Shown here piece by piece: positions 1,553 through 15,669 of a DNA stretch of 16,325 bases (positions within the stretch are counted from its first letter, which is position 1; each line of letters starts with the position of its first letter). The DNA comes from a virus (Duplodnaviria > Heunggongvirae > Uroviricota > Caudoviricetes). The notes under the pieces were generated by a model that was given only the letters and a program-made list of their open reading frames with translations, did no database searches and was not told where the DNA came from. The translations under genes and the position numbers were made by a program. The DNA lies in the IMG/VR virus record IMGVR_UViG_2529292981_000039, one strand, 5' to 3'.

Positions 1553-1741
1553 TCACGAGGACAGAAGTTTCTCGCAATTAAAATTTATCAGCTTTACTTT
1601 CTGCTCTCTGGACACGCCTGCTTCTTTTTTCCCTGAGAGCATTTTTTCGCATTCTGATTTCGTTAATTTAGATTTTGAATATCTTGTCCAGTTAGTAGGA
1701 GTGCCACCTTCTTTTTCAATAGTGGCAGTTATTTTATACAT
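1553..1741 (-). CDS. ydaC: YdaC/RcbA-like small protein, 62 aa from MYKITATIEKEGG...
   Basis: Translation resembles Rac YdaC (DUF1187) as I recall it; sits between xis and ralR as in Rac. Its start overlaps the ralR stop region. Confidence 0.65.
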   Translation of the reverse strand: MYKITATIEKEGGTPTNWTRYSKSKLTKSECEKMLSGKKEAGVSREQKVKLINFNCEKLLSS

Positions 1742-2794: not shown

Positions 2795-5456
2795 TTGCAT
2801 ATTCCTTAGCCCAGCGGGGCAGTGATAACGTCTTAATAGCTGGCCATTCATTGGTATTGAGGCAGTCAGCCAGGGTTCGCAGATTGCGGTGATATTCCAG
2901 CTGACCTGCCAGTTTTGCTTCTTCGCCCATCATGAAAATTTCAACCGGATAACGTCCGCATTCAATAGTTGTGCTGGCAACCAGAAAAACGAAAGTTGGC
3001 TGCACTCCAAACTGTGCTTCATAACCGTCACTGTAGAATGCATCCTGAACGTGATAGCGGTAGTCGTAATAAGCGGTTTTGAATCGTTGAATATCCGCCG
3101 TAGTTTTCACGTCCATGATCCAGTGAAATTCAGGGATAATTTTGTCCGGACGGCACCGACACAAAATTCCTGTTTCAGGATCTTCCCAGTAAATTGATGA
3201 TTCAGCGTGTCCGGCGCTTTCAACAAGCCATTGCCCCAGCGGCAAAGCCATAACGCTTTGATACATGAGTTCAATTTTCAGACCTTCTTCCGCAGTGATA
3301 ACCGTTTTTCCTGTGCTTGCGCATTCCATCAGAAACGCTTTCTCTTCTTCTTTTCCGGCGTTTGTACGGCGGTTAAATTCAGGTGCTACGATAAAGCGGT
3401 TACTGAATTCTTCCGGTTCAAGTACCCGGCAGTGGAAAGCGGTTCCTAAATCGAGCGTTTTTGTCTTTGTGTTGTCCACGGGGGCATTTTTACGCCACAA
3501 ATACAGTGCCGGAGTATCAGCAATGTCATCGAGCTGAGACTTACTGACACCGGGACCTACGTGGTAATTCTCATTCGAAATTCCGTAATAAATACCTGGC
3601 TCTATGTCTTCTACGATTACGGGATCTGCGACTTCGCCAGTTTCATCACTGCAATCGCGATGCGGATCGCTGCCAGCATTCTCATTGTGCGGATGTTCAG
3701 CGCCTTCCATTTCCTCCGGATCATTTTCCTTAGCTTCAACCTGATTCTCTTCATCGAATGTTTCCTGGTATGTTGCGTCGCCCATCACCGCGCCACAATC
3801 AGGGCAGTTGCCGCCACTCCTCTGGCCGCAGGCGGTGCAGATCTTTTCCGGTTCCTGTTGCACTACTGGTTCAGGTTGTTTCGTTTCTGGCTCGTTTTGT
3901 TGCGTATTTGGGCTGTTCTGTTCCGCTTTCTGGTCGTTCTGTTCCGTTTCTGGCTGATTCTGGTACACAGAATCGCGGGTCTGGATCCCCTTAATCCATT
4001 TCGGATCATTCGGGTCGCTAATCCCTTCAACAAATTCTCCGCGAGAGGCAGCCAGCAATTTGTCGGCATCGACAGGATTTTTGGGCGGAATGGTTTTCCG
4101 GGCTTCATGGAGTTCTGCCCGCAGTTTCTGATATTTCGCATCAACAGAATTTACCTGTGACTGAGCATCCAGCGGCTGCGTGTCCTGATGATGTTCAGTT
4201 GCATCCGGTTCCACTGTTTCAGCCGTTGCCTGTTTATCTGCCATTGCGCAAGATGGTTGCGGTTTTTCTTCACCATCGTGTTTTCCTTCTTCTGTTACAC
4301 GCTGCGGCATCGGGGCAGAGGAACGACCGCAGGCAATATCCACGATTTCCGGATCAGGGTTGGCATGATCGGTTTCAATCAGCACCTTGTTCAGATATTC
4401 AGTGACATGCGCAGGGATAACCTCGATCCCAATTGGTGCTTCTTTTACGGACGCAACCACGATGGCGCGGGAATAATCCAGCCCGCCAGGCATGGTGATG
4501 AATTTGTCGCGGAAAACAGAAAAGGGCGGTTTATTTTCAGCGATAATTTCCTCGACACGTTTAGCGTGTGCCGGATGAAGGTTATAAATATCCACATCCA
4601 TTGAACGGGCCAGAACGCCGGTGGCTACATCTCGTGCGAGTGATGTCTTATCATGTTTGAATCCTTCACCACGATCGGTAATATTTCCGCCGCCAGCGTT
4701 AGCGCCGGATGGCGTGCGGCTGATGCGTGAAACACGATTTCCTTTCATCCACTCTTTTGTAAGCAGACCGCGATCGGTGTAGTCAGCGCCCAGGTATGCT
4801 TCGATAAAAGAGGTCATCAGTCCCAGGTCCGAATTTACGGGGGCGGGGAAAACTTTGTCAGTGTCTCGCACCAGTTTGTACAAATCCCGAATCTCCAGCG
4901 GTTCGAGTTGCACTGCTTTATTTGAGATGGCCAGCGCGGTAACGGCGGGAAGTTTTTCATCCTGTGCGTTATGTAATGCGCGCAGTTTGTCCAGTGAAAC
5001 GTGCGTGAGCGGTTTTTCGCTGTTGTGTTGCGCCAGCCAGCGAACAGGCAGAATCTGACCTGAAACCGGAAGAAGCATATTCTCCTCAATCTTAGCCATG
5101 TCTTCGCCGTTGACGTTGGTATTGTCAGTACTGGCTGGTTTGTCCGGAACAGAGGGCGCGATAAGTATCATTGTGATACCATCTTCTCCGCCTTTTTCGT
5201 ATCGGTTGCAGAATTCAGTATCAAACACACCTTCCGGTGGAAGGTCATTCACAACGGGTAAATGGACGCGGATGGGTTTTTTAAAATCCTCTTCGTCAAA
5301 TCCGGCATCGTCCATTGCAGCAATGCAGCGTGAAACCGCAACAGAAAGTTTTTTTGCCTCTGTCCAGAAAAAGCCGCCTTTGATGCCGAGGCGTTTTCTG
5401 GTTTTATCATTTTTCGCGTCGCAATACAGAGCGTAATTTTCTTTATCAGTACTCAT
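2787..5456 (-). CDS. recE: RecE exonuclease VIII, 889 aa, with a divergent N-terminus and a low-complexity Q/E/P/N linker
   Basis: The central and C-terminal parts match K-12 RecE as I recall it (e.g. [51 protein letters not shown]); the C-terminal nuclease domain is present. Confidence 0.93.
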
Positions 5457-5536
5457 TGATAAACCTCATAACTATTTTAAGGTTGAGCGAACCCCTGCCA
5501 TTGCTGGCATAAATTCAGTTTCGAATAGTCAGTTAG

Positions 5537-5707
5537 TTAAAGTTCGTGTGCCATCTGGTCTTTTTCGGCACAATTTTCACTACAATATTTTTTCATTTCC
5601 GTCGTTGGGATAACTCCACGCATGAAATGAAGTGGTCTTTTAATACTTTTGCTTTCTTCAATTCCTTTATTGCAAAGGTGGTAAGCACATTTTATTTTCT
5701 TAGTCAT
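5537..5707 (-). CDS. ydaE: YdaE-like small Cys-rich (probably metal-binding) protein, 56 aa ([12 protein letters not shown]...YCSENCAEKDQMAHEL); not in the supplied ORF track because it is under 60 aa
   Basis: Found by translating the minus strand myself. Four Cys in two pairs; the start overlaps the racC stop. Resembles Rac YdaE as I recall it. Confidence 0.6.
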   Translation of the reverse strand: MTKKIKCAYHLCNKGIEESKSIKRPLHFMRGVIPTTEMKKYCSENCAEKDQMAHEL

Positions 5708-5928
5708 CACCATGACTCCGCCTTTACAGGTAAACCATCACGACCGAGGAAGACTTTAATCATGCAGTCAGAAATGCATGTTTTTGTAGTCAGGCTACGA
5801 ATATAAAGTTTTCGCTTTTTAATATTGTTTGCCGAGGCGATATATGTCCGACCTTCATGAAGAACATAATCGCCAGGAGTCACACACTGACGTGGTATTT
5901 CATCAGTTCCGAAGTGATGAGCAATCAT
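5707..5928 (-). CDS. racC: RacC-like protein, 73 aa
   Basis: [29 protein letters not shown]... resembles Rac RacC; lies between recE and ydaE as in Rac. It is shorter than the 91 aa I remember for K-12 RacC, so the C-terminus may differ. Confidence 0.6.
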
Positions 5929-5974
5929 AATTATCTCCTTAATAAATTTCTCGTATTAAGAAAATTCCAGAAAA

Positions 5975-6529
5975 CTATTTAATACTCAGCAACTGCTCGA
6001 CGGTCATATTTTTAATTGCGCTTCGGTTTACAAGAGTCCAGCCCTGTTTCTCCAGATAAAGGCGGAAAGTGTCCAGGGTACAGACGAGAGCGCCATCAGG
6101 AACGGTTTCAGTGAATTCGACGTTGCCGAATTTGTCGAAGCGAACAACCAGAGTGCGCCCATCGCCCGGAATGATTTTGTTTGTGGGAGTGGTATTATTC
6201 TGGCGTAGCTCTGCTTCCATGCGGTCGAACTCAGCGATGTAGGCCTCTTTGAATGCAGCGGCTTTTTTGCCAGTGAAACCCATCACCAGGAAAACGAAGC
6301 CGTTTTTGGTGATTTGGTACATTGGGAGTTTGCGCCCGGTTGAGTCGGTGTATTCACTTGGCTTAAAATTAAGCTCAGTGAATTCTGAGGAACATTCCAG
6401 AGCTTCAATTTTTTGAATGACGTTTTTATGCAGCTTGCGGAAAAACTCTGCAACTGCAACAGACGTAGTGACAGCACGACCATTTTCGATGGTTACGTCA
6501 GGGTGAGAAAGGGTAGGGATAGTAGCCAT
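5975..6529 (-). CDS. Rha-family phage regulatory protein (antirepressor-like), 184 aa from MATIPTLSHPDVTIENGRAVTTS...
   Basis: The N-terminal region has the Phage_pRha signature (GRAVTTSVAVAEFF.K.H.NV...GFVFLVMGFTGKKAAAFKEAYI..F..ME). The track ORF extends in frame to 6823, but that extension is G/P/S/T/R-rich and contains a terminator-like hairpin, so I call the start at 6529. Confidence 0.7.
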   Translation of the reverse strand: MATIPTLSHPDVTIENGRAVTTSVAVAEFFRKLHKNVIQKIEALECSSEFTELNFKPSEYTDSTGRKLPMYQITKNGFVFLVMGFTGKKAAAFKEAYIAEFDRMEAELRQNNTTPTNKIIPGDGRTLVVRFDKFGNVEFTETVPDGALVCTLDTFRLYLEKQGWTLVNRSAIKNMTVEQLLSIK

Positions 6530-6703
6530 GATGGCAGCCTCTAGTGATAAGTTGGTAAACTCACCACCGGAGGTGCAAATCTCATGGGTGGTGAGACGTA
6601 CAGGGTTTGCACTACCGGTCACTAGAGAATCCGGCCCGCCCGAAAACGGCCCCATACGCCCCACCATAATCTGAATGTGGCTGCGCTTTACGCATAAAAA
6701 AAC

Positions 6704-6726
6704 CGCTTTGGCGCGGTTATGCGCTC
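6704..6726 (-). terminator. Candidate Rho-independent terminator on the minus strand (aaccgc-gccaaa-gcggtt followed by T7)
   Basis: 6-bp GC-rich stem, 6-nt loop and a run of seven T on the minus strand, read directly from the sequence. Confidence 0.5.
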
Positions 6727-7234
6727 TAGTGATCATCGGGGTGCAAATCCCGGCACCCGTTTTATGAGGTGCAGGTGCACTATAATTCCACCCGTTCTGG
6801 TTTTCAATAGCTACATCCAACATTTTCTCTCACCTTTCATCACTGAAGTGAACTTTGTTGATGCGGTGCCTGGTGCCTCCAGGTGACGTTAACCAGTTAA
6901 CAATTAACGCCGGATAATCCACCCATAACACTGATGCTTTTAACTGTGCCGCGTGCGCTCAGCCGCATTCACCGCATCACAAAATTCACTTTAAAAAGGG
7001 GCGGCAGGGCAGCCACGGAGTAGAACTGATGCCGCCAAGACTACACACAGCAATGTCGTTATTTACAACCGGAGGCGCACTCCCACCATTTAAATTTAAC
7101 AGACAAGACCGACTCTTTATGGATATCGGAAATGCGCCTTCGTGTTGTGCCCGGTTTTATTTCACCACCTCCGGGCTTTGGTGGCCTCGGCTATACCCCT
7201 ACAGCAAGAATATTGAATTAATCCAATAAATGGT

Positions 7235-7387
7235 TTAGCTGGTATTTTTGGCAAGCCAGCGACGTGCGCCAGCTTCGGTTTTAAACGATTTGCTTTTGGT
7301 ATACGTCATGGCGGTGAATGTGCCGTCCTGATTGGGAAACACGCCACATACCAGAGATTCGTTGTTGCCAAGATCGATAGTATCCAT
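7235..7387 (-). CDS. Small lambdoid early-left protein, 50 aa from MDTIDLGNNESL..., possibly YdaF/YdfA-like (DUF1391)
   Basis: GAGG lies 7 nt upstream of the ATG, and the gene sits downstream of the pL-like promoter. The family assignment is from memory and uncertain. Confidence 0.45.
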   Translation of the reverse strand: MDTIDLGNNESLVCGVFPNQDGTFTAMTYTKSKSFKTEAGARRWLAKNTS

Positions 7388-7567
7388 GTTGACCTCATTT
7401 CCCCTTAACGCCGGGTGGCGGAACGTTTTATCTACTGCGCTTTGTATCAATCAACAACTGCCGTCATGTTCGTATGCCTCAGGCTGGCTACTTAGCCCTG
7501 TTCAGTGGCTGGATAACTCGAGGTATTGTCCTGCCGTTCTCTGGTGGGGCGTTGTTTGGATATGCTT

Positions 7568-7609
7568 ATTAAACACAATGCGTTTTCTTGTGTCAACACG
7601 AAATGTGTT
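7568..7609 (-). promoter_or_regulatory. pL-like sigma70 promoter on the minus strand (-35 TTGACA at 7591-7596, 17-bp spacer, -10 TTTAAT at 7568-7573) with operator palindrome AACACgaaatGTGTT (7595-7609) overlapping the -35
   Basis: Motifs read directly from the sequence; the same AACAC-N5-GTGTT palindrome recurs at 8171-8185 in the cI/cro intergenic region. Confidence 0.55.
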
Positions 7610-7638
7610 TTGTGGTGGGTGTCATATGATGATGGTAC

Positions 7639-7663
7639 AAAAAAAGCCCGCTGATAGCGGGCT
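7639..7663 (-). terminator. Rho-independent terminator downstream of the repressor gene (gcccgc-tgata-gcgggc followed by T7 on the minus strand)
   Basis: Perfect 6-bp GC stem plus T-run on the minus strand, about 30 bp after the repressor stop. Confidence 0.65.
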
Positions 7664-7693
7664 GATTGGCATATTACTGTGATAGCAAGATCA

Positions 7694-8113
7694 TTACTCC
7701 GGTGGGGGATTATCTTTAAGCCTGCCTCTCAAATATTTTTCTACATACTCATCGATTTCTTTTAGCCGGACTTCAAATAGCTCAATCATTCGTTGTTGTT
7801 CTGAGCCCGGTAGCTGGTTAAACAACTCAAGAAGTTTTCGTTGGGATTCATTTAACCACAATTCAGAAGATTCCTGTTCTCCAAAGAGGAGCTCAGGAGG
7901 AGATATGCCAAGTGCCTTTCCCAATACGACAGCGTCATGCACTCCAACATTTCTGCTACCCGCCTCATAGTTACCTATACGCGATTGCGTCCATCCGCAG
8001 ATTTCAGCAAGTTTTCCTTGAGATAAACCAAGCTTCTGCCTGCGCTCTTTAAGACGCATTGCAATTTTGTCATTGAGCCTACTAGCGGCAATTTTTTCGT
8101 TTTCTTTTTCCAT
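7694..8113 (-). CDS. Prophage immunity repressor (CI-like, XRE-family HTH), 139 aa, with no LexA/S24 autopeptidase domain
   Basis: HTH motif (LGLSQGKLAEICGWTQSRIGNYEAG) near the N-terminus; divergent from a cro-like gene; too short, and without a Ser/Lys dyad region, to be a self-cleaving repressor. Confidence 0.85.
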   Translation of the reverse strand: MEKENEKIAASRLNDKIAMRLKERRQKLGLSQGKLAEICGWTQSRIGNYEAGSRNVGVHDAVVLGKALGISPPELLFGEQESSELWLNESQRKLLELFNQLPGSEQQRMIELFEVRLKEIDEYVEKYLRGRLKDNPPPE

Positions 8114-8209
8114 TGCATCCTTGTATCACGAATCGTGATTTACACAAAACACAAAACAGCTTGACCATATAACACAAGATGTGTTTAAAATTGTCATCGG
8201 AGGTTTTCA
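8114..8209. promoter_or_regulatory. Divergent repressor/cro promoter-operator region: perfect 15-bp palindrome ATCACGAATCGTGAT (8125-8139), palindrome AACACaagatGTGTT (8171-8185), candidate rightward -35 TTGACC (8161-8166)
   Basis: Palindromes read directly from the sequence. GGAGG at 8199-8203 precedes the cro ATG at 8210. Confidence 0.6.
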
Positions 8210-8452
8210 ATGAACAAAATTTCAACATATCGAAAACAGCTTGGGCTGTCTCAAAGACAACTTGCTGTTCAGTTAGGGTGGATACAAAGCCGACTGGCAA
8301 ATTACGAAGCAAATTTTCGTACCCCTGGACTAGAGGAGTGCAGAAAAATTGTTTCTACCCTTAATCGGCTTGGCGCTCATTGTGGACTTGACGATGTATT
8401 CCCCCCAGACGGTAAGCATAGCGAAAACAGCATAGGAGCGGTTGATTCATGA
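8210..8452 (+). CDS. Cro-like HTH regulator (YdaS-like), 80 aa
   Basis: HTH (LGLSQRQLAVQLGWIQSRLANYE); good RBS; first gene of the rightward operon, opposite the repressor. Confidence 0.8.
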   Translation: MNKISTYRKQLGLSQRQLAVQLGWIQSRLANYEANFRTPGLEECRKIVSTLNRLGAHCGLDDVFPPDGKHSENSIGAVDS

Positions 8453-8871
8453 AAATCAGGCATGAGCACATCGAATCAGTGCTGTTAGCCCTGGCAGCCG
8501 AAAAAGGGCAGGCGTGGGTCGCTAACGCAATTACTGATGAATATCTGCGCCAGGGGGGCGGCGAATTGCCCCTGGTACCAGGCAAGGACTGGAACAATCA
8601 GCAGAATATCTATCACCGTTGGTTGAAAGGTGAAACGAAAGCGCAAAGGGAAAAAATTCAGAAACTGATCCCTGCGGTTCTGGCAATTCTTCCGCGCGAG
8701 CTGCGTCACCGACTCTGCATCTTCGATACCCTGGAACGCCGTGCATTACTGGCGGCGCAGGAAGCGTTGAGTACGGCAATTGATGCGCATGATGATGCAG
8801 TCCAGGCCGTTTACCGGAAAGCACATTTCAGCGGTGGTGGGTCGCCCGGTGATTCTGTCGTAGTGCATTGA
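8449..8871 (+). CDS. ydaT: YdaT-like protein (CII-like regulator, formerly proposed toxin), 140 aa
   Basis: MKIRHEHIESVLLALAAEKGQAWVANAITDEYLRQGGGELPLVPGKDWNNQQNIYHRWLKG... matches Rac YdaT as I recall it; start overlaps the cro-like stop (ATGA). Confidence 0.8.
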   Translation: MKIRHEHIESVLLALAAEKGQAWVANAITDEYLRQGGGELPLVPGKDWNNQQNIYHRWLKGETKAQREKIQKLIPAVLAILPRELRHRLCIFDTLERRALLAAQEALSTAIDAHDDAVQAVYRKAHFSGGGSPGDSVVVH

Positions 8872-8916
8872 TTGAAATTAATCGTGCCGGATTGTTTTGT
8901 TCGGTATCAGTTAAAT

Positions 8917-9357
8917 GTAACGCTGCGAGCGTTACAAGGTGAAAACAAATGGCTTCAAACTGGATAAAGCTCGAGGTTATTACGCCGGATAAGCCGGAAA
9001 TATTCAGGCTTGCTGAGATTCTGAATATTGATCCAGATGCCGCATTAGGGAAGGTTATTCGCTTCTGGGCATGGGCGGATCAACAAATGATAGACGGTAA
9101 TGCAGATTGTAACGCTCGCGGCGTTACAAAAAGTGCAATAGATCGCATCTCTTTTATGGCTGGTTTTGCTGATGCGTTAATTCAGGTTGGATGGCTGGTC
9201 GAAAATGACGTTGGGCTTTCTCTACCTAACTTTGAACGCCATAACGGAAAAAGCTCTAAAAAACGGGCGGTTACAAACGAGCGAGTTACAAAAATACGTG
9301 AACTGAAACGAAAAGGTAACGCTGCCGGCGTTACACAAACGGATCAAAAAGCGTTAC
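8917..9357. repeat. Iteron-like array: three copies of the 19-bp palindrome GTAACGC-N5-GCGTTAC (8917-8935, 9119-9137, 9316-9334), plus direct GTTACAAA half-sites (9269-9276, 9284-9291) and GCGTTAC at 9351-9357
   Basis: Read directly from the sequence. One copy is just upstream of the ydaU-like ATG and two are inside the gene, where they encode the repeated G/A/R-V-T peptide motif. Confidence 0.6.
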
Positions 9358-9737
9358 CAGAGGAAGAGGAAGAGGAAGATCTAAATACTGATCTCCCCCT
9401 AAATCCCCCTCGCCAAAAACGAGCGTCTAAAAAATTCGAGCCGGAGGCTATTGAGCTGCCCGATTGGTTGCCGGAAACACTCTGGCATGAGTGGGTCCGG
9501 TTCAGACAGGCATTGCGAAAACCGATTCGAACGGAGCAGGGCGCTAACGGGGCGATACGGGAACTGGAAAAATTCCGTCAGCAGGGTTTTACACCTGAGC
9601 TGGTGATTCGAAACAGCATCGCCAATGAATACCAGGGCCTGTTCGCGCCGAAAGGTGTTCGGCCTGAGACGTTGCTCCGACAGGTTAACACCGTCTCGTT
9701 GCCGGACAGTGCGATCCCGCCAGGCTTCAGGGGGTAA
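8949..9737 (+). CDS. ydaU: Replication initiator-like protein (YdaU-like, DUF1376-type, lambda O analogue), 262 aa
   Basis: Sits directly upstream of the DnaC-like loader, as O does relative to P in lambda; contains the internal iterons and an acidic EEEEEED stretch. Family assignment from memory. Confidence 0.7.
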   Translation: MASNWIKLEVITPDKPEIFRLAEILNIDPDAALGKVIRFWAWADQQMIDGNADCNARGVTKSAIDRISFMAGFADALIQVGWLVENDVGLSLPNFERHNGKSSKKRAVTNERVTKIRELKRKGNAAGVTQTDQKALPEEEEEEDLNTDLPLNPPRQKRASKKFEPEAIELPDWLPETLWHEWVRFRQALRKPIRTEQGANGAIRELEKFRQQGFTPELVIRNSIANEYQGLFAPKGVRPETLLRQVNTVSLPDSAIPPGFRG

Positions 9738-9743
9738 CAGACC

Positions 9744-10490
9744 ATGAAAAATATTGCGACAGGAGGCGTTCTGGAGCGTATCCGCAGACTGGCCCCACCA
9801 CATGTAACCGCCCCATTCAGAACGGTTGCGGAGTGGCGCGAGTGGCAACTTGCTGAAGGCCAGAAACGTAGCGAGGAGATCAACCGCCTGAATCGTCAGT
9901 TGCGGGTGGAAAAAATTCTGAATCGCTCAGGCATCCAGCCGTTGCACCGTAAATGCTCGTTTGCGAATTACCAGGTGCAGAACGACGGCCAGCGATACGC
10001 GTTAAGCCAGGCGAAATCCATCGCCGATGAACTGATGACCGGGTGTACAAATTTTGCGTTCAGCGGAAAACCTGGTACCGGGAAGAATCACTTAGCGGCA
10101 GCTATCGGGAATCGCCTGCTGAAAGACGGTCAGACAGTGATTGTGGTTACCGTGGCTGATGTTATGAGCGCCCTGCACGCCAGCTATGACGACGGGCAGT
10201 CAGGCGAAAAATTTTTGCGGGAACTGTGCGAAGTGGATCTGCTGGTTCTTGATGAAATTGGCATTCAGCGCGAGACAAAAAACGAGCAGGTGGTGCTGCA
10301 CCAGATTGTTGATCGCCGGACAGCGTCGATGCGCAGCGTGGGGATGCTGACAAACCTGAACTATGAGGCCATGAAAACATTGCTCGGCGAGAGGATTATG
10401 GATCGCATGACCATGAACGGCGGGCGATGGGTGAATTTTAACTGGGAGAGCTGGCGTCCGAATGTCGTCCAGCCAGGAATTGCGAAGTGA
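9744..10490 (+). CDS. ydaV: DnaC-like replicative helicase loader (IstB-like AAA+ ATPase), 248 aa
   Basis: Walker A ([15 protein letters not shown]) and Walker B (LLVLDEIG) motifs; position after the initiator gene. Confidence 0.9.
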
Positions 10491-10512
10491 TTTTTACCGG
10501 GAGGAAATTTTA

Positions 10513-11274
10513 ATGGAAACCGTTTTTGGTGCACTGAAAGCAATGGGAAAAGCCACGTCGGTAGAACTGGCTGCGCGACTTGATATCAGTCGTGAAGAAG
10601 TGCTGAACGAGCTTTGGGAACTGAAAAAGGCTGGATTCGTTGATAAAAGCGTATACACCTGGCGTGTGGCCGATAACAACGTTCAGCAGGAACAGCCAAT
10701 GCAGGCAGAACTGCCGGAAGAAACCACCACGGCAACAGTAGCGAAAATCTCAGAGTGCGATTTAACCGCGACGATTGAACAACGCGGACCACAAACGGCG
10801 GATGAACTGGCTACGCTGTTCGGTACAACATCCCGCAAAGTTGCTTCAACGCTGGCAATGGCAATCAGCAAAGGACGCCTGATTCGCGTAAACCAGAACG
10901 GTAAATTTCGTTACTGCATACCGGGCGATAATTTACCAGCAGAGCCGAAAGCAGCATCGGTAGCGGAAACTGATGGTAAAGCCTTTCCTCAGCCTGCATG
11001 TGTTGCGTTACCAGTACAGGAGGCTGCAACACAGGAAGATATTAAAACAGAAACTGTGGCGGACATTGTGCAGTCGCTGCCATCGTTTACTGCAACGCGA
11101 TCTGATGATTTGATTTTGTCATCGCTGCATATGGCAAACCGTGAACTGCGTCGGGCGAAAAATCATGTCCAGAAGTGGGAGCGTGTCTGCGCCGCGCTGC
11201 GGGAGCTGAACAAGCATCGGGATATTGTTCGACAGATTACTGATTTTTCCCGCCGTGTTGCATCGGAAAAGTGA
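10513..11274 (+). CDS. Hypothetical lambdoid prophage protein with two tandem winged-helix-like segments (possibly DUF1627), 253 aa from [10 protein letters not shown]...
   Basis: GGGAGGA lies 7 nt upstream of the ATG at 10513. The track ORF starts at 10462 but that start overlaps ydaV and lacks an SD. Confidence 0.55.
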
Positions 11275-11289
11275 TTGCCGGAGGCGCCC

Positions 11290-11712
11290 ATGGCAAAAGT
11301 ATTTACACCAGAAGAGCGGGAAAAAATTAAAGGGCAGGTTGTTGAACTTGTACGTCTGAGCGGCCGCGAGACGTTACGGCAACTGGAAGAGAAAACAGGT
11401 GCGACAAGATATCTGATGAGTGTTCTCGCCAGAGAGCTGGTTGCCAGTGGCGATGTATACAACTCTGGTTACGGGTTATTCCCGTCTGAACAGGCGCGTA
11501 AGGACTGGCAAAACGCCCGCAAAAAACTCTCAAGGGCAAATCTGAAGAAAACATCTGTGGATGATCCGGACCTTATCTGGTCATTACCAGACGGAGAAAT
11601 ACGCCGCTACGACAGGCGTCAGAACATAATCTGTAGCGAGTGCCGGAAGAGCGAAGTTATGCAGCGCGCACTGGCGTTTTATCAGGGTAATTTTCAGGAG
11701 GTGGCACAGTGA
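11290..11712 (+). CDS. Hypothetical protein, 140 aa from MAKVFTPEEREKIKG...
   Basis: GGAGG lies 5 nt upstream of the ATG at 11290; no recognisable motif. Confidence 0.5.
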   Translation: MAKVFTPEEREKIKGQVVELVRLSGRETLRQLEEKTGATRYLMSVLARELVASGDVYNSGYGLFPSEQARKDWQNARKKLSRANLKKTSVDDPDLIWSLPDGEIRRYDRRQNIICSECRKSEVMQRALAFYQGNFQEVAQ

Positions 11713-11939
11713 GCGGGATTGACTACCAGGATTTGGCTGCTGCCAACGCTTTCCTGGCGGATGTGCGGGCAGGGGCGTTTAACGACCTTTGCGCGGCGTT
11801 TGTCAGGCACGCAAAAATTGCAGGACTGGGTGATGGCGACACTGTGACGCTTAAGGAAGCGACTGATGCGCTGCTGCACTGTGCGGAACAACTTCGCGCA
11901 CCTGAAGGCTTGGTAATACTAGCTGAATGCCCACAATAG
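11709..11939 (+). CDS. Hypothetical protein, 76 aa, GTG start
   Basis: AGGAGG lies 7 nt upstream of the GTG; start overlaps the stop of the preceding gene (coupled). Confidence 0.45.
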   Translation: MSGIDYQDLAAANAFLADVRAGAFNDLCAAFVRHAKIAGLGDGDTVTLKEATDALLHCAEQLRAPEGLVILAECPQ

Positions 11940-12034
11940 TGTTAGCGATACACATATCAATGTAGATAAATATGTATTGTGGTTAAAGTTTGTTCGACTG
12001 GTTGACGAATTCGTGAAATCCCCTAAAGATTAGG

Positions 12035-12062
12035 TTTACAAAAATAAAATTTTGCGTAAAGA
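12035..12062 (+). promoter_or_regulatory. Candidate promoter for the cargo operon (-35 TTTACA at 12035-12040, -10 TAAAGA at 12057-12062), with the palindrome ACGAATTCGT (12005-12014) upstream
   Basis: Motifs read from the sequence; the -10 is weak, so the assignment is tentative. Confidence 0.3.
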
Positions 12063-12093
12063 TGAGCGGAGTTTTAAGAGAGAGGGATACCTT

Positions 12094-12744
12094 ATGCCGT
12101 CTGAACAGAATCTCCAACCGTGTTTTGAAATCAATCCTTGTTTGGATGAAAAATCTGTTATCAATCTTCTTCAGCAATTTGCTAACGTACTTGGCGAATT
12201 ATGGTTCCATCGCCATGAGTATGATGATAACTGGATTAATGGATGTAGGGCCTATGGATGGATAAAAAACTTTCTTGTAAAAAATCATAAAAAACTCAAA
12301 GGAGTGGCGATTCTTTCAACACCTCTGAATTTTGTGTTTACCCTGAACAGGGTGCCGTTACAGTTTGTGACCGATAAACTGGATTCACCAAAAAAGAAAC
12401 ATCGCTTATGTAAAAATGATGTTGAGTGTCGTCAGTTATCTCTTTTTGAAGATGATGTTAATTTTGAACATGATGTTACATGGCGTGTTCTGGCTGAAAA
12501 ATTACCATCTGCAAATAAAAAAGATGAAGATATTGAACCTCCAACGTGGCTTTTAGCCCTGATAGGTTTTGATTCATCAAATAATGTAGTGAGTAGATAC
12601 GAATTGGTGTCTAAAGTCCATGCTCCAGTACAAGCAGCTAATACTGACGTATTGCCAGAGGCCGTGGAAACACCACCGCTGAATTTGCAGCGGCGTGTTA
12701 AGAATGCGAAAAAAGCAGATAGTGATAAATATGGAACTATTTGA
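12094..12744 (+). CDS. Unknown 216-aa protein (MPSEQNLQPCFEINPCLDEK...), first gene of the AT-rich cargo operon; no recognisable domain
   Basis: GAGGGA lies 6 nt upstream of the ATG. Visibly AT-rich compared with the flanking phage genes (judged by eye, not computed). Its 3' end overlaps the start of the HTH-peptidase gene by 14 nt. Confidence 0.6.
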   Translation: MPSEQNLQPCFEINPCLDEKSVINLLQQFANVLGELWFHRHEYDDNWINGCRAYGWIKNFLVKNHKKLKGVAILSTPLNFVFTLNRVPLQFVTDKLDSPKKKHRLCKNDVECRQLSLFEDDVNFEHDVTWRVLAEKLPSANKKDEDIEPPTWLLALIGFDSSNNVVSRYELVSKVHAPVQAANTDVLPEAVETPPLNLQRRVKNAKKADSDKYGTI

Positions 12745-13852
12745 TTCTATAGGTAATTATCGTGGTGACTGCTTAAAATTAGCTCGTCAGGCTAAAGGGG
12801 TTACGGGCGAAGAGCTTGCTACTGCTTTGGGGGTGACTCGGCAATTTATAAACAAGTTAGAGCGTGGTTATCCCCCTTCATCTCAGATGTTGACAGCTCT
12901 TGCAGATTATCTGGATGTTAAAGAGTCGTTTTTCTTCACTGGAAGGAAATCACCATTAGACAGCGAGAACTGCCATTTCAGAAGCAAGAGATCAAGGACG
13001 CAGTCCTTAACTAATAGTATTCTGGCTCGAGCTGAAATTTTGGAGCAGTTTGTAAAGTGTTTGGAAACAGAAATAGTTCTTCCAGAATTGAACTTTCCTG
13101 ATACGTCCGGATTACCTTTGAACTCCGATGAAGATATTGAAAGAATTGCCGAGGCCTGTAGAAGGTATTGGGGTTTGGGGCTGGGACCGATATCTTCAAT
13201 GGTTAATTTCGTGGAAAGTATTGGGGTTGTTGTTGCTCATGTATCTGGCGTGGATGATCGTATTGATGCGTTTACTATTAATAGTAAACGCCCATTGATA
13301 ATTAGAAATTCCGCGAAAAAGAGTGTGTGTCGATTTCGCTCAGATCTCGGTCATGAACTGGGGCATCTTGTTTTGCATGAAGGGATTATAACAGGGGATA
13401 AAATTACAGAACATCATGCGGATTATTTTTCGAGCGCATTCCTTGTACCTAGAGTTTCGTTCGTTAATGAATTTCCTAAAATGCGAGGATCGCATCTTGA
13501 CTGGAATGCACTAATTAATTTCAAAGAACGATGGAAAATCAGTCTTCGCATGTGTATTTATCGTGCTACGGTTTTGGGGCTGATTACGCCACAACAAATG
13601 AGAACGGGATTTATCCATCTAAATAAAAGAGGGACGATTAAAGGAGAGATGGGGGATGAGTTAATCCCTGAGGAAAAACCTCGCTTACTTTCCTGTGCAG
13701 TTGAATTGCTGGATATATCTTCTTGGAAGCAGATACTGGATATGTCGGGAGTGAGGGAACGCTTTGTTTCCAAAATGTTTGGAATAAGGCGCACACATGA
13801 TGATATATCGAGTAATATTGTGCCTCTTTATAGATACAAAGACTTTGGTTAA
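12731..13852 (+). CDS. XRE-family HTH fused to an ImmA/IrrE-type (COG2856-like) zinc metallopeptidase, 373 aa; an alternative ATG lies at 12704
   Basis: N-terminal HTH (LKLARQAKGVTGEELATALGVTRQFINKLERG) and HEXXH motif (SDLGHELGHLVLHEG) in a domain of the size and arrangement typical of ImmA/IrrE proteases. Confidence 0.8.
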   Translation: MELFDSIGNYRGDCLKLARQAKGVTGEELATALGVTRQFINKLERGYPPSSQMLTALADYLDVKESFFFTGRKSPLDSENCHFRSKRSRTQSLTNSILARAEILEQFVKCLETEIVLPELNFPDTSGLPLNSDEDIERIAEACRRYWGLGLGPISSMVNFVESIGVVVAHVSGVDDRIDAFTINSKRPLIIRNSAKKSVCRFRSDLGHELGHLVLHEGIITGDKITEHHADYFSSAFLVPRVSFVNEFPKMRGSHLDWNALINFKERWKISLRMCIYRATVLGLITPQQMRTGFIHLNKRGTIKGEMGDELIPEEKPRLLSCAVELLDISSWKQILDMSGVRERFVSKMFGIRRTHDDISSNIVPLYRYKDFG

Positions 13853-14031
13853 AATCATAATGGGTGCTTGAGGCTATCTGCCTCAGGCATGAACACCAAA
13901 AGGCAGATAGAGAAAAGCCCCAGTTAACATTACGCGTCCTGCAAGACGCTTAACATTAATCTGAGGCCCAATCTATGCTTCACAAACGTAGGTTAGCCTC
14001 TTACGTGCCGAAAGGCAAGGAGAAGCAGGCT

Positions 14032-14187
14032 ATGAAGCAGCAAAAGGCGATGTTAGTCGCCCTGATCGTCATCTGTTTAACCGTCATAGTGACGGCACTG
14101 GTAACGAGGAAAGACCTCTGCGAGGTACGAATCCGAACCGGCCAGACGGAGGTCGCTGTCTTCACAGCTTACGAACCTGAGGAGTAA
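14032..14187 (+). CDS. hok: Hok/Gef-family type I toxin (HokD/RelF-like), 51 aa (MKQQKAMLVALIVICLTVIVTALVTRKDLCEVRIRTGQTEVAVFTAYEPEE); the in-frame upstream extension from 13975 may be a mok-like leader
   Basis: Almost identical to chromosomal Hok toxins as I recall them; single transmembrane helix; followed by a terminator hairpin. Confidence 0.88.
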   Translation: MKQQKAMLVALIVICLTVIVTALVTRKDLCEVRIRTGQTEVAVFTAYEPEE

Positions 14188-14255
14188 GAGACCTGGCGGG
14201 GGAGAAATCCCTCGCCACCTCTGATGTGTCAGGCATCCTCAACGCACCCGCACTT

Positions 14256-14277
14256 AACCCGCTTCGGCGGGTTTTTT
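14256..14277 (+). terminator. Rho-independent terminator after hok (aacccgc-ttcg-gcgggtt followed by T4)
   Basis: 7-bp stem with a GC core, a 4-nt loop and a T-run, on the plus strand. Confidence 0.7.
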
Positions 14278-14462
14278 GTTGCGCGCTGAATGCGCAGGGT
14301 GAAAAATAACCATATATTTGATTATATACACAACAAAAAATAAAAGTCATTGTACCTGCACATTAAATAATCAAATATACGGCGTGAAATAAATATTTTT
14401 CAGATTAATATTTTTGTCTCTATGTGGATATAACCGTTTGTACTTATAAACTCGGAGGCATC

Positions 14463-14675
14463 GTGGAAAAAATAAAGAAACTATTTAGTTGCAAATACGC
14501 AGTCATACGTCGTGATGACCTGTCAGTTATAGTCGAAATGGATTACTTCCCTGAAACCCCAAAATCAATGATGTATCGTAATGGTCGAAAGGCAATTTTT
14601 TTACCGATGAGGGTAAGTGACATTATGGGAAATGATAAACTGCTGGATGAATTGCGAGTCAGAGCATCCTGTTAG
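14463..14675 (+). CDS. Hypothetical small protein, 70 aa, GTG start (alternative GTG at 14424)
   Basis: GGAGG lies 4 nt upstream of the GTG at 14463; preceded by an AT-rich promoter-like region; no recognisable motif. Confidence 0.4.
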   Translation: MEKIKKLFSCKYAVIRRDDLSVIVEMDYFPETPKSMMYRNGRKAIFLPMRVSDIMGNDKLLDELRVRASC

Positions 14676-14746: not shown

Positions 14747-15346
14747 ATGGCGCATATACAACTGGTCAAACAAACCTCTTCCGGATTACTTCTCCCGGCG
14801 ACGCCGGAGAGTTGCGATTTTTTGCATCAAATCAAAATCGGTGAGTGGATACACGCAGACTTTAAGCGTGTGCGTAACTACGCATTCCACAAGCGTTTTT
14901 TCAAACTCCTGCAACTGGGATTCGATTACTGGACTCCGAACGGTGGGGCGATCACGCCTCGCGAACGAGAACTGGTGTCCGGTTTCGTTGATTTCCTGTG
15001 CGAATCAGTAGGTCGGGAACATACTCCAGCCCTGAGTGATGCCGCAGAGCAATATCTGAATACCGTTGCGACACGCAGAACCCGGGATACGGCATTGCTA
15101 AAGTCGTTTGAGGCTTTCCGCGAGTGGGTAACCATTCAGGCCGGATTTTACACCGAGCATTTTTATCCGGACGGTAGCCGTGGGCGCAGGGCGAAATCCA
15201 TCGCGTTTGCGAATATGGACGAAACCGAGTTTCAGCAGGTTTATAAATCTGTGCTGAATGTACTGTGGAACTGGATCCTGTTCCGTAAATTTTCCTCTCC
15301 GGAACAAGTCGAAAATGTGGCCGCGCAGCTACTGGAGTTTGCGTAA
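14747..15346 (+). CDS. Conserved lambdoid nin-region protein, 199 aa (possibly DUF1367-like); function unknown
   Basis: GGAGA lies 6 nt upstream of the ATG; stop overlaps the start of the YbcO-like gene (TAATG). Family name from memory, low certainty. Confidence 0.55.
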   Translation: MAHIQLVKQTSSGLLLPATPESCDFLHQIKIGEWIHADFKRVRNYAFHKRFFKLLQLGFDYWTPNGGAITPRERELVSGFVDFLCESVGREHTPALSDAAEQYLNTVATRRTRDTALLKSFEAFREWVTIQAGFYTEHFYPDGSRGRRAKSIAFANMDETEFQQVYKSVLNVLWNWILFRKFSSPEQVENVAAQLLEFA

Positions 15347-15636
15347 TGGTGGATTTACGTAAAGCGGCAAAAGGTCAGATGTGTACAGTCAGAATTCCTG
15401 GCTACTGCAATCACAATCCCGAAACGTCCGTGCTGGCGCATTACAGGCTGGCGGGGACGTGTGGAACAGCGACAAAACCACACGATATGCAGGCGGCAAT
15501 TGCCTGTAGCTCGTGCCACGATTTAATCGACGGGCGGGTAAAAACCAGCGATTACACCAAAGAAGAATTGCGCCTGATGCACGCGGAGGGCGTTTTCCGC
15601 ACACAGGAAATCTGGAGGGAGAAAGGCATTCTATGA
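15346..15636 (+). CDS. ybcO: YbcO-like (DUF1364) putative nuclease, 96 aa, Cys/His-rich
   Basis: MVDLRKAAKGQMCTVRIPGYCNHNPETSVLAHYRL...ACSSCHD resembles DLP12 YbcO as I recall it; conserved Cys/His pattern. Confidence 0.65.
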   Translation: MVDLRKAAKGQMCTVRIPGYCNHNPETSVLAHYRLAGTCGTATKPHDMQAAIACSSCHDLIDGRVKTSDYTKEELRLMHAEGVFRTQEIWREKGIL

Positions 15637-15669
15637 TTTACCCAACAAATACCGGAAAAAGCGGAGAAC
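15633..15669 (+). pseudogene. 5' stub of a gene (MIYPTNTGKSGE...) cut after about 12 codons by the IS629-like insertion
   Basis: ATG overlaps the ybcO-like stop (ATGA coupling); the reading frame then runs straight into the IS left terminal repeat at 15670. Confidence 0.45.

What the first reader, a model, noticed from the sequence alone, without database searches (positions are those of the whole stretch)
7694..8113. Immunity repressor lacks an autocleavage domain; induction may depend on an antirepressor (Rha) or on the ImmA-like protease
Seen in the sequence: the CI-like repressor is only 139 aa, with an HTH plus a short helical C-terminus and no LexA/S24 Ser-Lys peptidase region. The same element carries a Rha-family protein (5975-6529) and an HTH-ImmA/IrrE metallopeptidase (12731-13852). 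Established knowledge: non-cleavable repressors are inactivated either by antirepressors or by dedicated ImmA-type proteases that cleave the repressor. Inference: one of these two genes is the induction switch, and the ImmA-like protein could degrade this repressor as well as, or instead of, regulating its neighbour.
Basis: inference. Interest (0 to 1): 0.55.

Follow-up and report, generated by a model that had tools for sequence, protein, structure and literature searches.

The report
Short prophage repressor and its antirepressors

Summary
ORF 7694-8113(-) encodes a 139-aa XRE-HTH protein with a two-helix C-terminus and no S24 peptidase domain. Palindromic operators flank it on both sides. 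It is a DicA/GfoR/GtgR-class short repressor, a class already reported as non-cleavable and inactivated by antirepressors (Lemire 2011; Asadulghani 2009; Ragunathan 2023).

- **ImmA-like gene (12731-13852):** it is RmrA, and the overlapping upstream gene is RmrT, so the pair is a RosmerTA defence/toxin-antitoxin cargo module. It occurs in only 31 E. coli genomes, against 153 that carry this immunity region.
- **Rha (5975-6529):** it sits behind its own promoter plus isrK and C4 RNAs. This is the layout that controls the antirepressor-like AnrP of Gifsy-1, so Rha is a plausible SOS-independent switch.
- **Missed gene (14463-14675):** a 70-aa, GUG-start gene lies between hokD and the irsA homologue, where gfoA/gftA and rem lie in other prophages. 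It accompanies this repressor in about 146 of 153 E. coli genomes. In other genera its homologues follow a perfect LexA box and usually dinI.

The window has no LexA box, so cis induction is predicted to be SOS-independent. This is a new member of a known kind, of modest interest.

The parts
7694..8113 (-). Immunity repressor, 139 aa: XRE HTH (about residues 14-77) plus a conserved two-helix C-terminal domain (86-133). DicA/GfoR/GtgR class, no S24 domain.
8125..8185 (.). OR-like operator pair (ATCACGAATCGTGAT at 8125-8139; AACACAAGATGTGTT at 8171-8185) between the repressor gene and the cro-like gene. The second site overlaps the spacer of a TTGACC promoter read from the sequence.
7572..7609 (.). 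OL-like operator pair (AACACGAAATGTGTT at 7595-7609, plus a 2-mismatch copy at 7572-7586) beyond the repressor gene's terminator.
7645..7663 (-). Intrinsic terminator directly after the repressor stop codon, so the repressor gene appears monocistronic.
8210..8452 (+). Cro-like YdaS-type HTH protein, 80 aa, divergent from the repressor.
8449..8871 (+). YdaT (CII-like), 96% identical to the YdaT of Sakai Sp10.
   Evidence: PMC9986795
14463..14675 (+). 70-aa small protein, GUG start with a GGAGG Shine-Dalgarno; candidate cognate antirepressor. It belongs to phrog_1813 and lies where gfoA/gftA (before the irsA homologue) and K-12 rem (after hokD) lie. An in-frame GTG at 14424 would give 83 aa but has no Shine-Dalgarno.
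14256..14273 (+). Terminator at the end of the hok transcript, followed by a 26% GC spacer with no LexA box upstream of the small gene.
14747..15346 (+). DUF1367 protein, 54% identical to Gifsy-2 STM1020 (irsA homologue). It marks the position of the antirepressor slot.
6779..6807 (-). Sigma-70-like promoter TTGAAA-17-TATAGT (10 of 12) directly upstream of isrK.
6696..6772 (-). isrK-family sRNA with its own terminator (6701-6718).
6584..6671 (-). C4-family antisense RNA between isrK and the Rha start codon.
5975..6529 (-). Rha-family protein, 184 aa: Phage_pRha N-domain plus a variable C-terminal domain with weak similarity to the AnrP C-terminus and to Rem-family antirepressors. Second antirepressor candidate.
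12094..12744 (+). RmrT-like toxin of a RosmerTA module (not part of the immunity switch).
12731..13852 (+). RmrA: HTH plus M78 (ImmA/IrrE-type, HELGH) antitoxin/regulator of RosmerTA.

Best explanation
The 139-aa protein is the immunity repressor of a Rac/Sp10-like lambdoid prophage. It belongs to the DicA/GfoR/GtgR class: an XRE helix-turn-helix domain that reads palindromic operators on both sides of its gene, plus a short conserved helical C-terminal domain. It has no protease domain, so RecA cannot make it cleave itself.

It is most likely switched off by a protein antirepressor that binds it, not by proteolysis. The element carries two antirepressor-type modules.
1. A 70-aa GUG-start gene at 14463-14675 lies in the slot that gfoA/gftA occupy in Gifsy phages and rem occupies in Qin. 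It is the partner that stays linked to this repressor family across E. coli, Salmonella, other genera and sequenced phages.
2. The Rha gene at 5975-6529 is transcribed from its own promoter through an isrK sRNA and a C4 antisense RNA. This is the cassette that keeps Gifsy-1 AnrP and P1 Ant translationally silent until a signal arrives.

Neither module has a LexA box here. Cis induction is therefore predicted to be SOS-independent, or to depend on antirepressors supplied in trans by co-resident prophages. The HTH-M78 'ImmA-like' protein is RmrA, which regulates its overlapping RmrT toxin in a RosmerTA defence module.

Shown here: domain content, operators, family relations, gene linkage, RNA elements, absence of an SOS box. 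Inferred: that either protein binds and inactivates this repressor, and what signal triggers it.
For: **Repressor class.** It is HTH-only and helical. It is 29% identical to K-12 DicA over the full length, E 2e-15. It shares the C-terminal domain with Gifsy-2 GtgR and with the repressor of the Gifsy-like phage SPN3UB, at 51% over residues 87-137. The C-terminal domain is nearly invariant in the family. Operators occur only at 7572-7609 and 8125-8185.

**Small gene.** It matches phrog_1813 at E 6e-33. All 14 invariant residues of the family alignment are kept. It is followed by a DUF1367 protein 54% identical to the Gifsy-2 irsA homologue and preceded by hokD, as rem is in K-12. From the chimeric-query search (180 genomes, 327 places) I estimate that about 146 of the 153 E. 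coli genomes with this immunity region also hold it. Three of three inspected prophages with different cargo or integrase have it. Homologues lie near the repressor in 10 of 15 loci from other species, in two Salmonella prophage contexts (three loci) and in the four top phages. In eight of those ten loci, and in phages Chris1 and SPN3UB, the homologue follows a perfect LexA box, usually with dinI; two of the ten (L008, L011) show no dinI match, L014's box lacks one, and L013 has a dinI match but no perfect box. The relatives in Chris1 and SPN3UB also hit phrog_340, the family of Rem, the validated antirepressor of DicA (PMC10448788). Gifsy repressors of this class are not cleaved; they are inactivated by small GUG-start antirepressors (PMC3121763).

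**Rha.** isrK scores 68.6 bits and C4 78.1 bits, both full length and above the gathering scores. The promoter, the terminator and a start codon that aligns with the anrP start are all present. Gifsy-1 has the same layout, and there IsrK activates AnrP translation and AnrP induces the prophage (PMC4825925). isrK-C4 followed by an Ant-like gene also accompanies related repressors in L026, L027, L021 and phage pPE4.

**RmrTA.**
Against: - No experiment exists for this repressor or for either candidate.
- The small protein gives no BLAST alignment with K-12 Rem, and the small-protein profile (A3) shows no detectable similarity to Gifsy-2 GftA. I could not obtain a GfoA sequence, so the link to validated antirepressors rests on gene position and on the bridge through phrog_340.
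- The window's copy lacks the C-terminal GY motif and tail of the family.
- It has no LexA box, no dinI and no recognisable promoter on its strand. It could therefore be expressed only after derepression.
- Rha is not a conserved partner: the exact allele is in 47 genomes. Prophages with the identical repressor carry ORF6N-type Ant proteins whose C-termini are only about 20% identical to Rha's. The similarity between the Rha C-terminal domain and Rem-family proteins is weak (hhalign probability 62%, E 8e-5; phrog_340 E 8e-5).
- The heteroimmune Sakai Sp10 relative has a different short repressor and is not mitomycin-inducible (PMC2669165).
- DicA and PaaR2 switches can flip without any antirepressor (PMC10448788, PMC8630535).
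Confidence: 0.6

Rival explanations
1. The ImmA-like metalloprotease (12731-13852) cleaves the 139-aa repressor, as ImmA cleaves ImmR in ICEBs1 or IrrE cleaves DdrO, and this is the induction switch.
For: The protein has an intact M78 domain with HELGH and an HTH. ImmA/IrrE proteases cleave small XRE repressors that have helical C-terminal domains. DdrO appears among the structural matches, over the HTH only.
Against: It is a full-length RmrA (E 5.7e-107) that overlaps an RmrT gene, so the pair is a self-contained RosmerTA module. It lies 4.6 kb from the repressor, beyond the replication genes, in a low-GC cargo slot that holds unrelated genes in sister prophages. It is present in 31 E. coli genomes against 153 with the repressor, and in none of the related loci or phages.
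Confidence: 0.04
2. No dedicated inducer acts in cis. The repressor and Cro-like YdaS form a bistable switch that flips stochastically or when the repressor is destabilised (heat, denaturants, stationary phase). The small gene and Rha only act after derepression, or on other prophages.
For: DicA/DicC and PaaR2/YdaS switches flip spontaneously, independently of RecA and of Rem (PMC10448788, PMC8630535). The small gene lies behind a terminator with no recognisable promoter or SOS box. [quoted passage not shown] Sakai Sp10 is only spontaneously induced (PMC2669165).
Against: The repressor and the small gene stay tightly linked across mosaic prophages. The isrK promoter is independent of pL. Both points argue that these modules feed into this switch.
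Confidence: 0.2
3. Induction is driven in trans. LexA-controlled or CI-controlled antirepressors from co-resident prophages of the STEC host bind the conserved C-terminal domain of this repressor and couple it to the SOS response.
For: Gifsy antirepressors act on heteroimmune repressors, and Fels-1 FsoA acts on GtgR (PMC3121763). The C-terminal domain is far more conserved than the DNA-reading part of the protein. The host genomes carry many lambdoid prophages. A P22_AR_N antirepressor-like gene lies in this prophage's own lysis cassette.
Against: This was not tested. A DNA-level search for the Gifsy-type LexA-dinI-antirepressor module found a full-length match in only 1 of 5426 E. coli genomes, although the search is insensitive at this divergence. 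No protein-level search of the host genome was possible.
Confidence: 0.15

Closest known systems
DicA (Qin prophage, E. coli K-12) with its antirepressor Rem
   Same: DicA is 135 aa against 139 aa here, and the two are homologous over the full length (29% identity, E 2e-15), including the LLELFNxLPxSEQ C-terminal helix. Both have a divergent Cro-like partner. Both left operons carry a DUF1391 gene and a DicF sRNA. In both, a small gene of about 70-83 aa lies directly after hokD and its terminator.
   Different: The window's small protein gives no BLAST alignment with Rem. It falls in phrog_1813 rather than phrog_340, and its upstream region is unrelated to that of rem. The operators differ and the element is heteroimmune. 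Nothing has been tested experimentally here.
Gifsy-1/-2/-3 repressors GfoR, GtgR and GfhR with LexA-controlled antirepressors GfoA, GftA and GfhA (Lemire et al. 2011)
   Same: Both have short repressors without a cleavage domain, and the C-terminal domain is shared with GtgR. Both have a small GUG-start gene immediately upstream of the irsA/DUF1367 homologue. Relatives of this repressor in other genera keep the LexA box, usually with dinI, ahead of the small gene, as in Gifsy.
   Different: The window has no LexA box and no dinI; hokD and a terminator take their place. The small-protein family shows no detectable similarity to GftA. Homology to GfoA could not be tested directly.
isrK-orf45-anrP locus of Gifsy-1, and the c4-icd-ant immI operon of phage P1
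   Same: The order is the same: promoter, isrK sRNA with terminator, C4-type RNA, then the start codon of an Ant-like gene. The RNA region is 77% identical to Gifsy-1's and the start codons align.
   Different: The downstream protein is Rha-family rather than the ORF6N-type AnrP, and only a weak C-terminal resemblance remains. The cassette lies in the left operon near pL rather than after the Q gene. The c4 a1/b1 target model scores below its threshold (18.8 against 46.7 bits).
RosmerTA (RmrT/RmrA) anti-phage toxin-antitoxin systems
   Same: There is a full-length RmrA match (HTH plus Zn-peptidase) and an RmrT match. The two genes overlap with the toxin first, and the module is low-GC prophage cargo.
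   Different: Neither defence nor toxicity has been tested for this allele. It has no demonstrated relation to the immunity repressor.
Lambda CI, P22 C2 and LexA (S24 autocleaving repressors)
   Same: The N-terminal HTH domain is related; it is up to 58% identical to the N-terminal domain of the cleavable CI of phage mEp213. The divergent cI/cro layout with OL and OR is also shared.
   Different: The protein has no S24 domain, no Ser/Lys dyad and no linker cleavage site, and it is about 100 residues shorter.

Membership tests
LexA/CI-type autocleaving repressors (Peptidase S24) | C-terminal S24 peptidase domain with a Ser/Lys dyad | tested here: not met
   Pfam gives HTH families only. The model is all-helical. 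At 139 aa the protein has no room for the domain.
LexA/CI-type autocleaving repressors (Peptidase S24) | Ala-Gly or Cys-Gly cleavage site in an interdomain linker | tested here: not met
   The only Ala-Gly (A51-G52) lies inside the HTH domain, and the linker at 78-88 has none (sequence).
DicA/GfoR/GtgR-class short non-cleavable prophage repressors | About 125-160 aa, with an N-terminal XRE HTH | tested here: met
   139 aa, with HTH_3 at E 4.7e-13.
DicA/GfoR/GtgR-class short non-cleavable prophage repressors | Sequence homology to DicA and the Gifsy repressors, including the helical C-terminal domain | tested here: met
   DicA, E 2e-15 over the full length. GtgR C-terminal domain, E 1e-6. SPN3UB repressor C-terminal domain, E 2e-13. 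The NCBIfam DicA model matches over the full length but below its cut-off (57 against 101 bits).
DicA/GfoR/GtgR-class short non-cleavable prophage repressors | Immunity-region context: divergent cro-like gene and operators flanking the repressor gene | tested here: met
DicA/GfoR/GtgR-class short non-cleavable prophage repressors | Not cleaved on induction; inactivated by antirepressor binding | not testable with these tools
   This needs a western blot and binding assays.
Gifsy-type antirepressor module (LexA box - dinI - gfoA/gftA - irsA) | Small ORF with a GUG start immediately upstream of the irsA homologue | tested here: met
   GTG at 14463 with a GGAGG Shine-Dalgarno; DUF1367 is 54% identical to STM1020.
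Gifsy-type antirepressor module (LexA box - dinI - gfoA/gftA - irsA) | LexA box and dinI homologue upstream | tested here: not met
   There is no CTGT-N8-ACAG in the window, and no 1-mismatch site near the gene. There is no dinI. Relatives in other genera do have them.
Gifsy-type antirepressor module (LexA box - dinI - gfoA/gftA - irsA) | Sequence homology to a validated antirepressor (GfoA, GfhA, GftA) | tested here: inconclusive
   The small-protein profile shows no similarity to GftA. No GfoA sequence was available. The window protein is homologous to the positional equivalents in SPN3UB and Chris1, which follow a LexA box and dinI.
Rem (antirepressor of DicA) | Small gene directly downstream of hokD in a DicA-type prophage | tested here: met
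Rem (antirepressor of DicA) | Sequence homology to K-12 Rem | tested here: inconclusive
   There is no BLAST alignment, and hhalign gives E 0.07. The link is indirect: Chris1 and SPN3UB members of phrog_1813 also hit Rem's phrog_340.
isrK/C4-controlled antirepressor cassette (Gifsy-1 isrK-anrP; P1 immI) | isrK and C4 RNA structures upstream of the Ant-like ORF, with promoter and terminator | tested here: met
   Both covariance models score above their gathering scores over the full length. The promoter matches 10 of 12 positions and the terminator is present. The region aligns with Gifsy-1.
isrK/C4-controlled antirepressor cassette (Gifsy-1 isrK-anrP; P1 immI) | C4 target sites (a1/b1) | tested here: inconclusive
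   RF03163 scores 18.8 bits against a gathering score of 46.7, at the expected place.
isrK/C4-controlled antirepressor cassette (Gifsy-1 isrK-anrP; P1 immI) | The downstream protein is a homologue of AnrP or P1 Ant | tested here: not met
   Rha against AnrP shows only a weak C-terminal resemblance, E 0.14.
ImmR/ImmA repressor-protease pair | Protease gene adjacent to and co-transcribed with the repressor it cleaves | tested here: not met
   The M78 gene lies 4.6 kb away on the other side of the replication genes and overlaps rmrT.
ImmR/ImmA repressor-protease pair | Co-inheritance of repressor and protease | tested here: not met
   31 against 153 E. coli genomes. The protease is absent from all related loci.
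RosmerTA | RmrA (HTH plus Zn-peptidase) and an adjacent RmrT | tested here: met
   RmrA E 5.7e-107 and RmrT E 1.4e-18, both nearly full length, with a 14-nt overlap and HELGH present.
RosmerTA | Toxicity neutralised by RmrA; phage defence | not testable with these tools
   These are experimental phenotypes.

The most novel reading that the evidence does not exclude
In the E. coli/Salmonella Rac-like lineage, the DicA-class repressor would be governed by a two-tier, SOS-independent antirepressor circuit. An isrK/C4-riboregulated Ant protein would be the trigger; it has a swappable Rha or ORF6N N-domain and a Rem-like C-terminal repressor-binding module. The hok-linked Rem/GfoA-like small protein has lost its ancestral LexA box and dinI, and would act as amplifier or second input. 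The same small fold would then serve as a repressor-binding module either on its own or fused to larger proteins. This would answer the open question of what induces Rem-type antirepressors.
Probability: 0.2. Interest if true: 0.55.

Novelty: new member of a known kind. Interest (0 to 1): 0.33.

Why it matters
Most lambdoid prophages of Shiga-toxin-producing E. coli carry short repressors that RecA cannot inactivate. What induces them decides how virulence and defence cargo moves between strains. This window offers a clean, testable case. It has an uncharacterised immunity type with a tightly linked Rem/GfoA-like gene that has lost SOS control, and an isrK/C4-controlled Rha gene. The trigger of Rem-type antirepressors is an open question stated in the literature (PMC10448788). 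The analysis also corrects two likely annotation errors: the 282-aa 'Rha' ORF runs over two RNA genes, and the 'ImmA-like' regulator is a RosmerTA antitoxin.

Tried and rejected
- **LexA box scan.** I scanned the window, the rest of the prophage and its right end. The window has no perfect box. Two perfect boxes lie in the structural genes of L001 and one in the tail genes of L004. No 1-mismatch site lies near any candidate promoter.
- **DinI-like gene at the prophage right end.** It has no LexA box and no downstream small ORF.
- **Sakai Sp10 repressor.** It is also 139 aa but unrelated by BLAST. The mitomycin data for Sp10 therefore apply to the class, not to this immunity type.
- **Solved structures and fold search.** Only the HTH domain matches.
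- **Direct homology of the small protein.** The profile found nothing against Gifsy-2 GftA, and BLAST found nothing against K-12 Rem.
- **Naming the small protein.** Every source name for the small protein is generic: 'hypothetical protein', apart from two short 'bacteriocin' entries; the cluster of its SPN3UB homologue adds only 'Bacteriophage protein' and some DinI labels.
- **Region upstream of the small gene.** There is no plus-strand promoter match, no repressor operator, no YdaT-type site and no unusual RNA fold.
- **DNA-level search for a Gifsy-type LexA-dinI-antirepressor module in E. coli.** The search is too insensitive to settle the question of trans-acting antirepressors.
Full report
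**What the window is.** The central 9 kb of the window (5400-14400) is 100% identical to a prophage found in a subset of E. coli O157:H7 and other Shiga-toxin-producing strains. The prophage is integrated next to ttcA, the Rac/Sp10 attachment site. Reading left to right, the window holds intR, xisR, ralR/RalA, recT, recE, kilR and a Rha gene. Then come a DUF1391 gene, the repressor, a Cro-like YdaS, YdaT, replication genes, DUF1627 and DUF977. The right part holds a two-gene cargo module, hokD/sok, a small gene, DUF1367, DUF1364 and a Q-like DUF1133 gene.

ORF 7694-8113(-) encodes 139 aa and coincides with the RefSeq CDS. Pfam finds only XRE-type HTH families at residues 18-75 and no S24 peptidase. 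An AlphaFold2 model built from 20 family members (mean pLDDT 87) is entirely helical. It has five HTH helices, a less confident linker at 78-88, then helices 89-99 and 103-133. Solved structures match only the HTH domain. All listed relatives (best 120 of 155 hits) are 91-202 aa, most of them 122-143 aa, so this is not a truncated CI. A 15-bp palindrome (AWCACRARWYGTGWT) occurs only at 7572-7609 and 8125-8185, on either side of the gene. The gene has its own terminator at 7645-7663. This is the anatomy of an immunity repressor with OL and OR.

**Which class it belongs to.**
- The protein aligns over its whole length with K-12 DicA (29% identity, E 2e-15).
- Its C-terminal domain (roughly W86-R131, LLELFNQLPGSEQ...RLKEIDEYVEKYLR) is shared with Gifsy-2 GtgR and with the repressor of the Gifsy-like phage SPN3UB (51% identity, E 2e-13).
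- Within the family this domain is almost invariant, while the DNA-reading part varies.
- The HTH domain alone is up to 58% identical to the N-terminal domain of cleavable CI proteins such as that of mEp213. The repressor is therefore a mosaic: a common DNA-binding domain joined to a different C-terminus.

This class is already in the literature. Lemire et al. showed that Gifsy repressors are not cleaved and are inactivated by small antirepressors, and they listed DicA and RacR as members (PMC3121763). Asadulghani et al. noted that the repressors of Sakai Sp4, Sp6, Sp9 and Sp10 lack the peptidase domain and that Sp10 is not mitomycin-inducible (PMC2669165). The Sakai Sp10 repressor is also 139 aa but is unrelated by BLAST to this one. 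The window is therefore a heteroimmune relative, and those data apply to the class only.

**The ImmA-like gene is a defence module.**
- The HTH-M78 protein (12731-13852, HELGH present) matches the PADLOC RmrA models over its full length (E 5.7e-107). The overlapping upstream gene (12094-12744) matches RmrT (E 1.4e-18).
- NCBIfam's nearest model is a 'repressor/antitoxin' family.
- RosmerTA is a published anti-phage toxin-antitoxin system in which a Zn-peptidase antitoxin is paired with diverse toxins (bioRxiv 10.1101/2022.05.11.491447; PMC10440598).
- The module has low GC (0.34-0.43). It sits in a slot that holds unrelated cargo in sister prophages: a methylase in Sakai, a doc toxin in APEC O1, and other genes elsewhere.
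- It is present in 31 of 5426 complete E. coli genomes, whereas the immunity region is in 153. It is absent from every related locus or phage I examined.
- The features that define an ImmR/ImmA pair, adjacency and co-inheritance, are not met.

I fetched 15 loci from other species that encode relatives of the repressor.
- In ten of them, a homologue of an 81-aa protein of Citrobacter phage Chris1 lies 5-8 kb away on the cro side. In eight of those ten it follows a perfect LexA box (for example TACTGTATAAACATACAGTA), usually with dinI between the box and the gene. L008 and L011 show no dinI match, L014's box lacks one, and L013 has a dinI match but no perfect box.
- This is the layout that Lemire et al. 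described for gftA and gfoA. The Gifsy-like phage SPN3UB has it too: LexA box, dinI, a 79-aa gene, then an irsA homologue 98.5% identical to that of Gifsy-2.
- The window holds a homologue at 14463-14675: 70 aa, GUG start, strong Shine-Dalgarno, phrog_1813 at E 6e-33, and all 14 invariant family residues retained.
- It lies immediately upstream of DUF1367, which is 54% identical to the Gifsy-2 irsA homologue. It lies immediately downstream of hokD and its terminator, exactly where rem lies in K-12 Qin. Rem is the experimentally validated antirepressor of DicA, and its inducing signal is unknown (PMC10448788).
- A chimeric query of the immunity region plus the small gene matched 180 genomes and 327 places. 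Given 153 genomes with the immunity region, I estimate that about 146 of them also carry the small gene.
- Three inspected prophages with different cargo, and in one case a different integrase and attachment site, all have it.
- Among 50,697 phage records only ten carry the small protein. They include the four phages with the closest full-length relatives of the repressor. One of these, pPE4, has a 64%-identical repressor with a near-identical C-terminal domain and a 96%-identical small protein.

There are limits to this evidence. The window protein gives no BLAST alignment with Rem, and the small-protein profile shows no detectable similarity to GftA. The sequence link runs through Chris1 and SPN3UB, whose small proteins hit both phrog_1813 and Rem's phrog_340. 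I could not obtain a GfoA sequence. In the window and its E. coli and Salmonella relatives, the LexA box and dinI are replaced by hok, a terminator and a 26% GC spacer. That spacer has no recognisable promoter, repressor operator or YdaT-type site.

**Rha is under RNA control.** Rfam finds three RNAs on the minus strand: a DicF-like sRNA (6999-7049), an isrK-family sRNA (6696-7772 is not the range; it is 6696-6772) and a C4 antisense RNA (6584-6671). All are full length and above their gathering scores. A TTGAAA-17-TATAGT promoter lies directly upstream of isrK, and isrK ends in its own terminator. The region aligns at 77% with the Gifsy-1 isrK locus, which has the same isrK-C4 order. The ATG at 6529 aligns with the anrP start codon.

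The 282-aa RefSeq ORF, whose N-terminus hits Pfam Phage_ASH, runs across two RNA genes. In Gifsy-1, IsrK acting in trans activates translation of orf45-anrP. AnrP expression induces the prophage, and isrK rises in stationary phase, at low Mg and after H2O2 (PMC4825925).

The same isrK-C4 cassette, followed by an ORF6N-type Ant-like gene, lies after the Q-like gene in two E. coli prophages with the identical repressor, in a Salmonella relative and in phage pPE4. It was not found within 10 kb of the repressor in seven of the other-species loci, six of which carry a perfect LexA box.

Several points count against Rha as the specific partner of this repressor.
- Rha is not homologous to AnrP apart from a weak C-terminal resemblance.
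- The Rha C-terminal domain is weakly similar to the small antirepressors (phrog_340 E 8e-5; hhalign probability 62%, E 8e-5).
- The Rha N-domain is common in Stx phages, with variable C-termini.
- The exact allele occurs in only 47 genomes.

**Most likely mechanism.** The repressor is non-cleavable and is inactivated by a protein antirepressor. The 70-aa gene is the family-linked partner. I put the chance that it acts on this repressor at about 0.5. The isrK/C4-controlled Rha is a second input whose expression logic would allow it to fire in a lysogen; I put its chance at about 0.3. The two are not exclusive, since Gifsy-1 has both kinds. With no SOS box in the window, cis induction should be SOS-independent.

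The rivals are these:
- a purely bistable YdaS/repressor switch with no dedicated inducer, as seen for DicA/DicC and PaaR2/YdaS (PMC10448788, PMC8630535);
- trans-acting antirepressors from co-resident prophages, which I could not test;
- cleavage by RmrA, which is very unlikely.

**Verdict.** The phenomenon is already described for this class, so this immunity type is a new, uncharacterised member of a known kind. The added value is threefold: the Rem/GfoA-like partner is identified, the isrK/C4 cassette in front of Rha is recognised, and the ImmA-like gene is reassigned to RosmerTA.

Noticed in passing
window 6530-6823 (-): The N-terminal 98 residues of the RefSeq 282-aa 'Rha family' ORF match Pfam Phage_ASH (PF10554, E 2.6e-15), but the same DNA encodes the isrK and C4 RNAs. 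The 'Ash' protein match may be a translated RNA locus, and the annotated start is probably wrong.
   Followed up: partly
window 6999-7049 (-): A DicF-family sRNA (54.7 bits) with a terminator lies downstream of the DUF1391 (ydfA-like) gene in the left operon. This mirrors the ydfA...dicF arrangement of Qin. Sister prophages L026 and L027 have it as well.
   Followed up: partly
window 16005-16121 (+): A strong, full-length Rfam match to the ALIL pseudoknot (RF01497, 121.5 bits), an IS3-family frameshift element, lies inside the 3' part of the DUF1133 Q-like gene (15633-16175). There is no transposase nearby. Unexplained.
   Followed up: no
window 12094-13852 (+): A RosmerTA (RmrT/RmrA) defence module is carried as low-GC cargo between the replication genes and hokD. 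It is present in only 31 of 5426 complete E. coli genomes.
   Followed up: yes
window 1557-1735 (+) and 13862-14187 (+): Two type I toxin-antitoxin loci are present: the RalA antitoxin RNA (219 bits) opposite ralR, and sok (120 bits) with hokD.
   Followed up: no
L004 8439-10975 (NZ_CP066753 2757438-2759974), outside the window: [quoted passage not shown] It carries three DUF1076 (NleG-like) genes and a DinI-like gene with no LexA box. This suggests recombination between the prophages at the Rac and Qin sites.
   Followed up: partly
L001 35128-35697, outside the window: A P22_AR_N/ORF11CD3 antirepressor-like gene lies inside the lysis cassette between the lysozyme and Rz-like genes, as in Sakai Sp10 (ECs_1965). 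It is a third Ant-type gene of this prophage. It lies in the lysis cassette, so it is probably late-expressed.
   Followed up: no
window 8442-8459, 8868-8885, 1504-1521: Near-matches to the YdaT recognition motif TTGATT-N6-AATCAA (PMC9986795) bracket the ydaT gene, and one more lies near xis. They are not significantly enriched (5 found against 1.7 expected).
   Followed up: no
L005-L016 versus window, L021, L024, L026-L028, L031: Relatives of the repressor fall into two layouts. Most of the other-genus loci and phage Chris1 have a LexA box, usually dinI, and the small gene; no isrK/C4 was found in Chris1 or in the seven other-genus loci scanned (L005-L011). The E. coli and Salmonella Rac-like prophages have hok, a terminator and the small gene without a LexA box, and usually an isrK-C4-Ant cassette.
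   Followed up: partly
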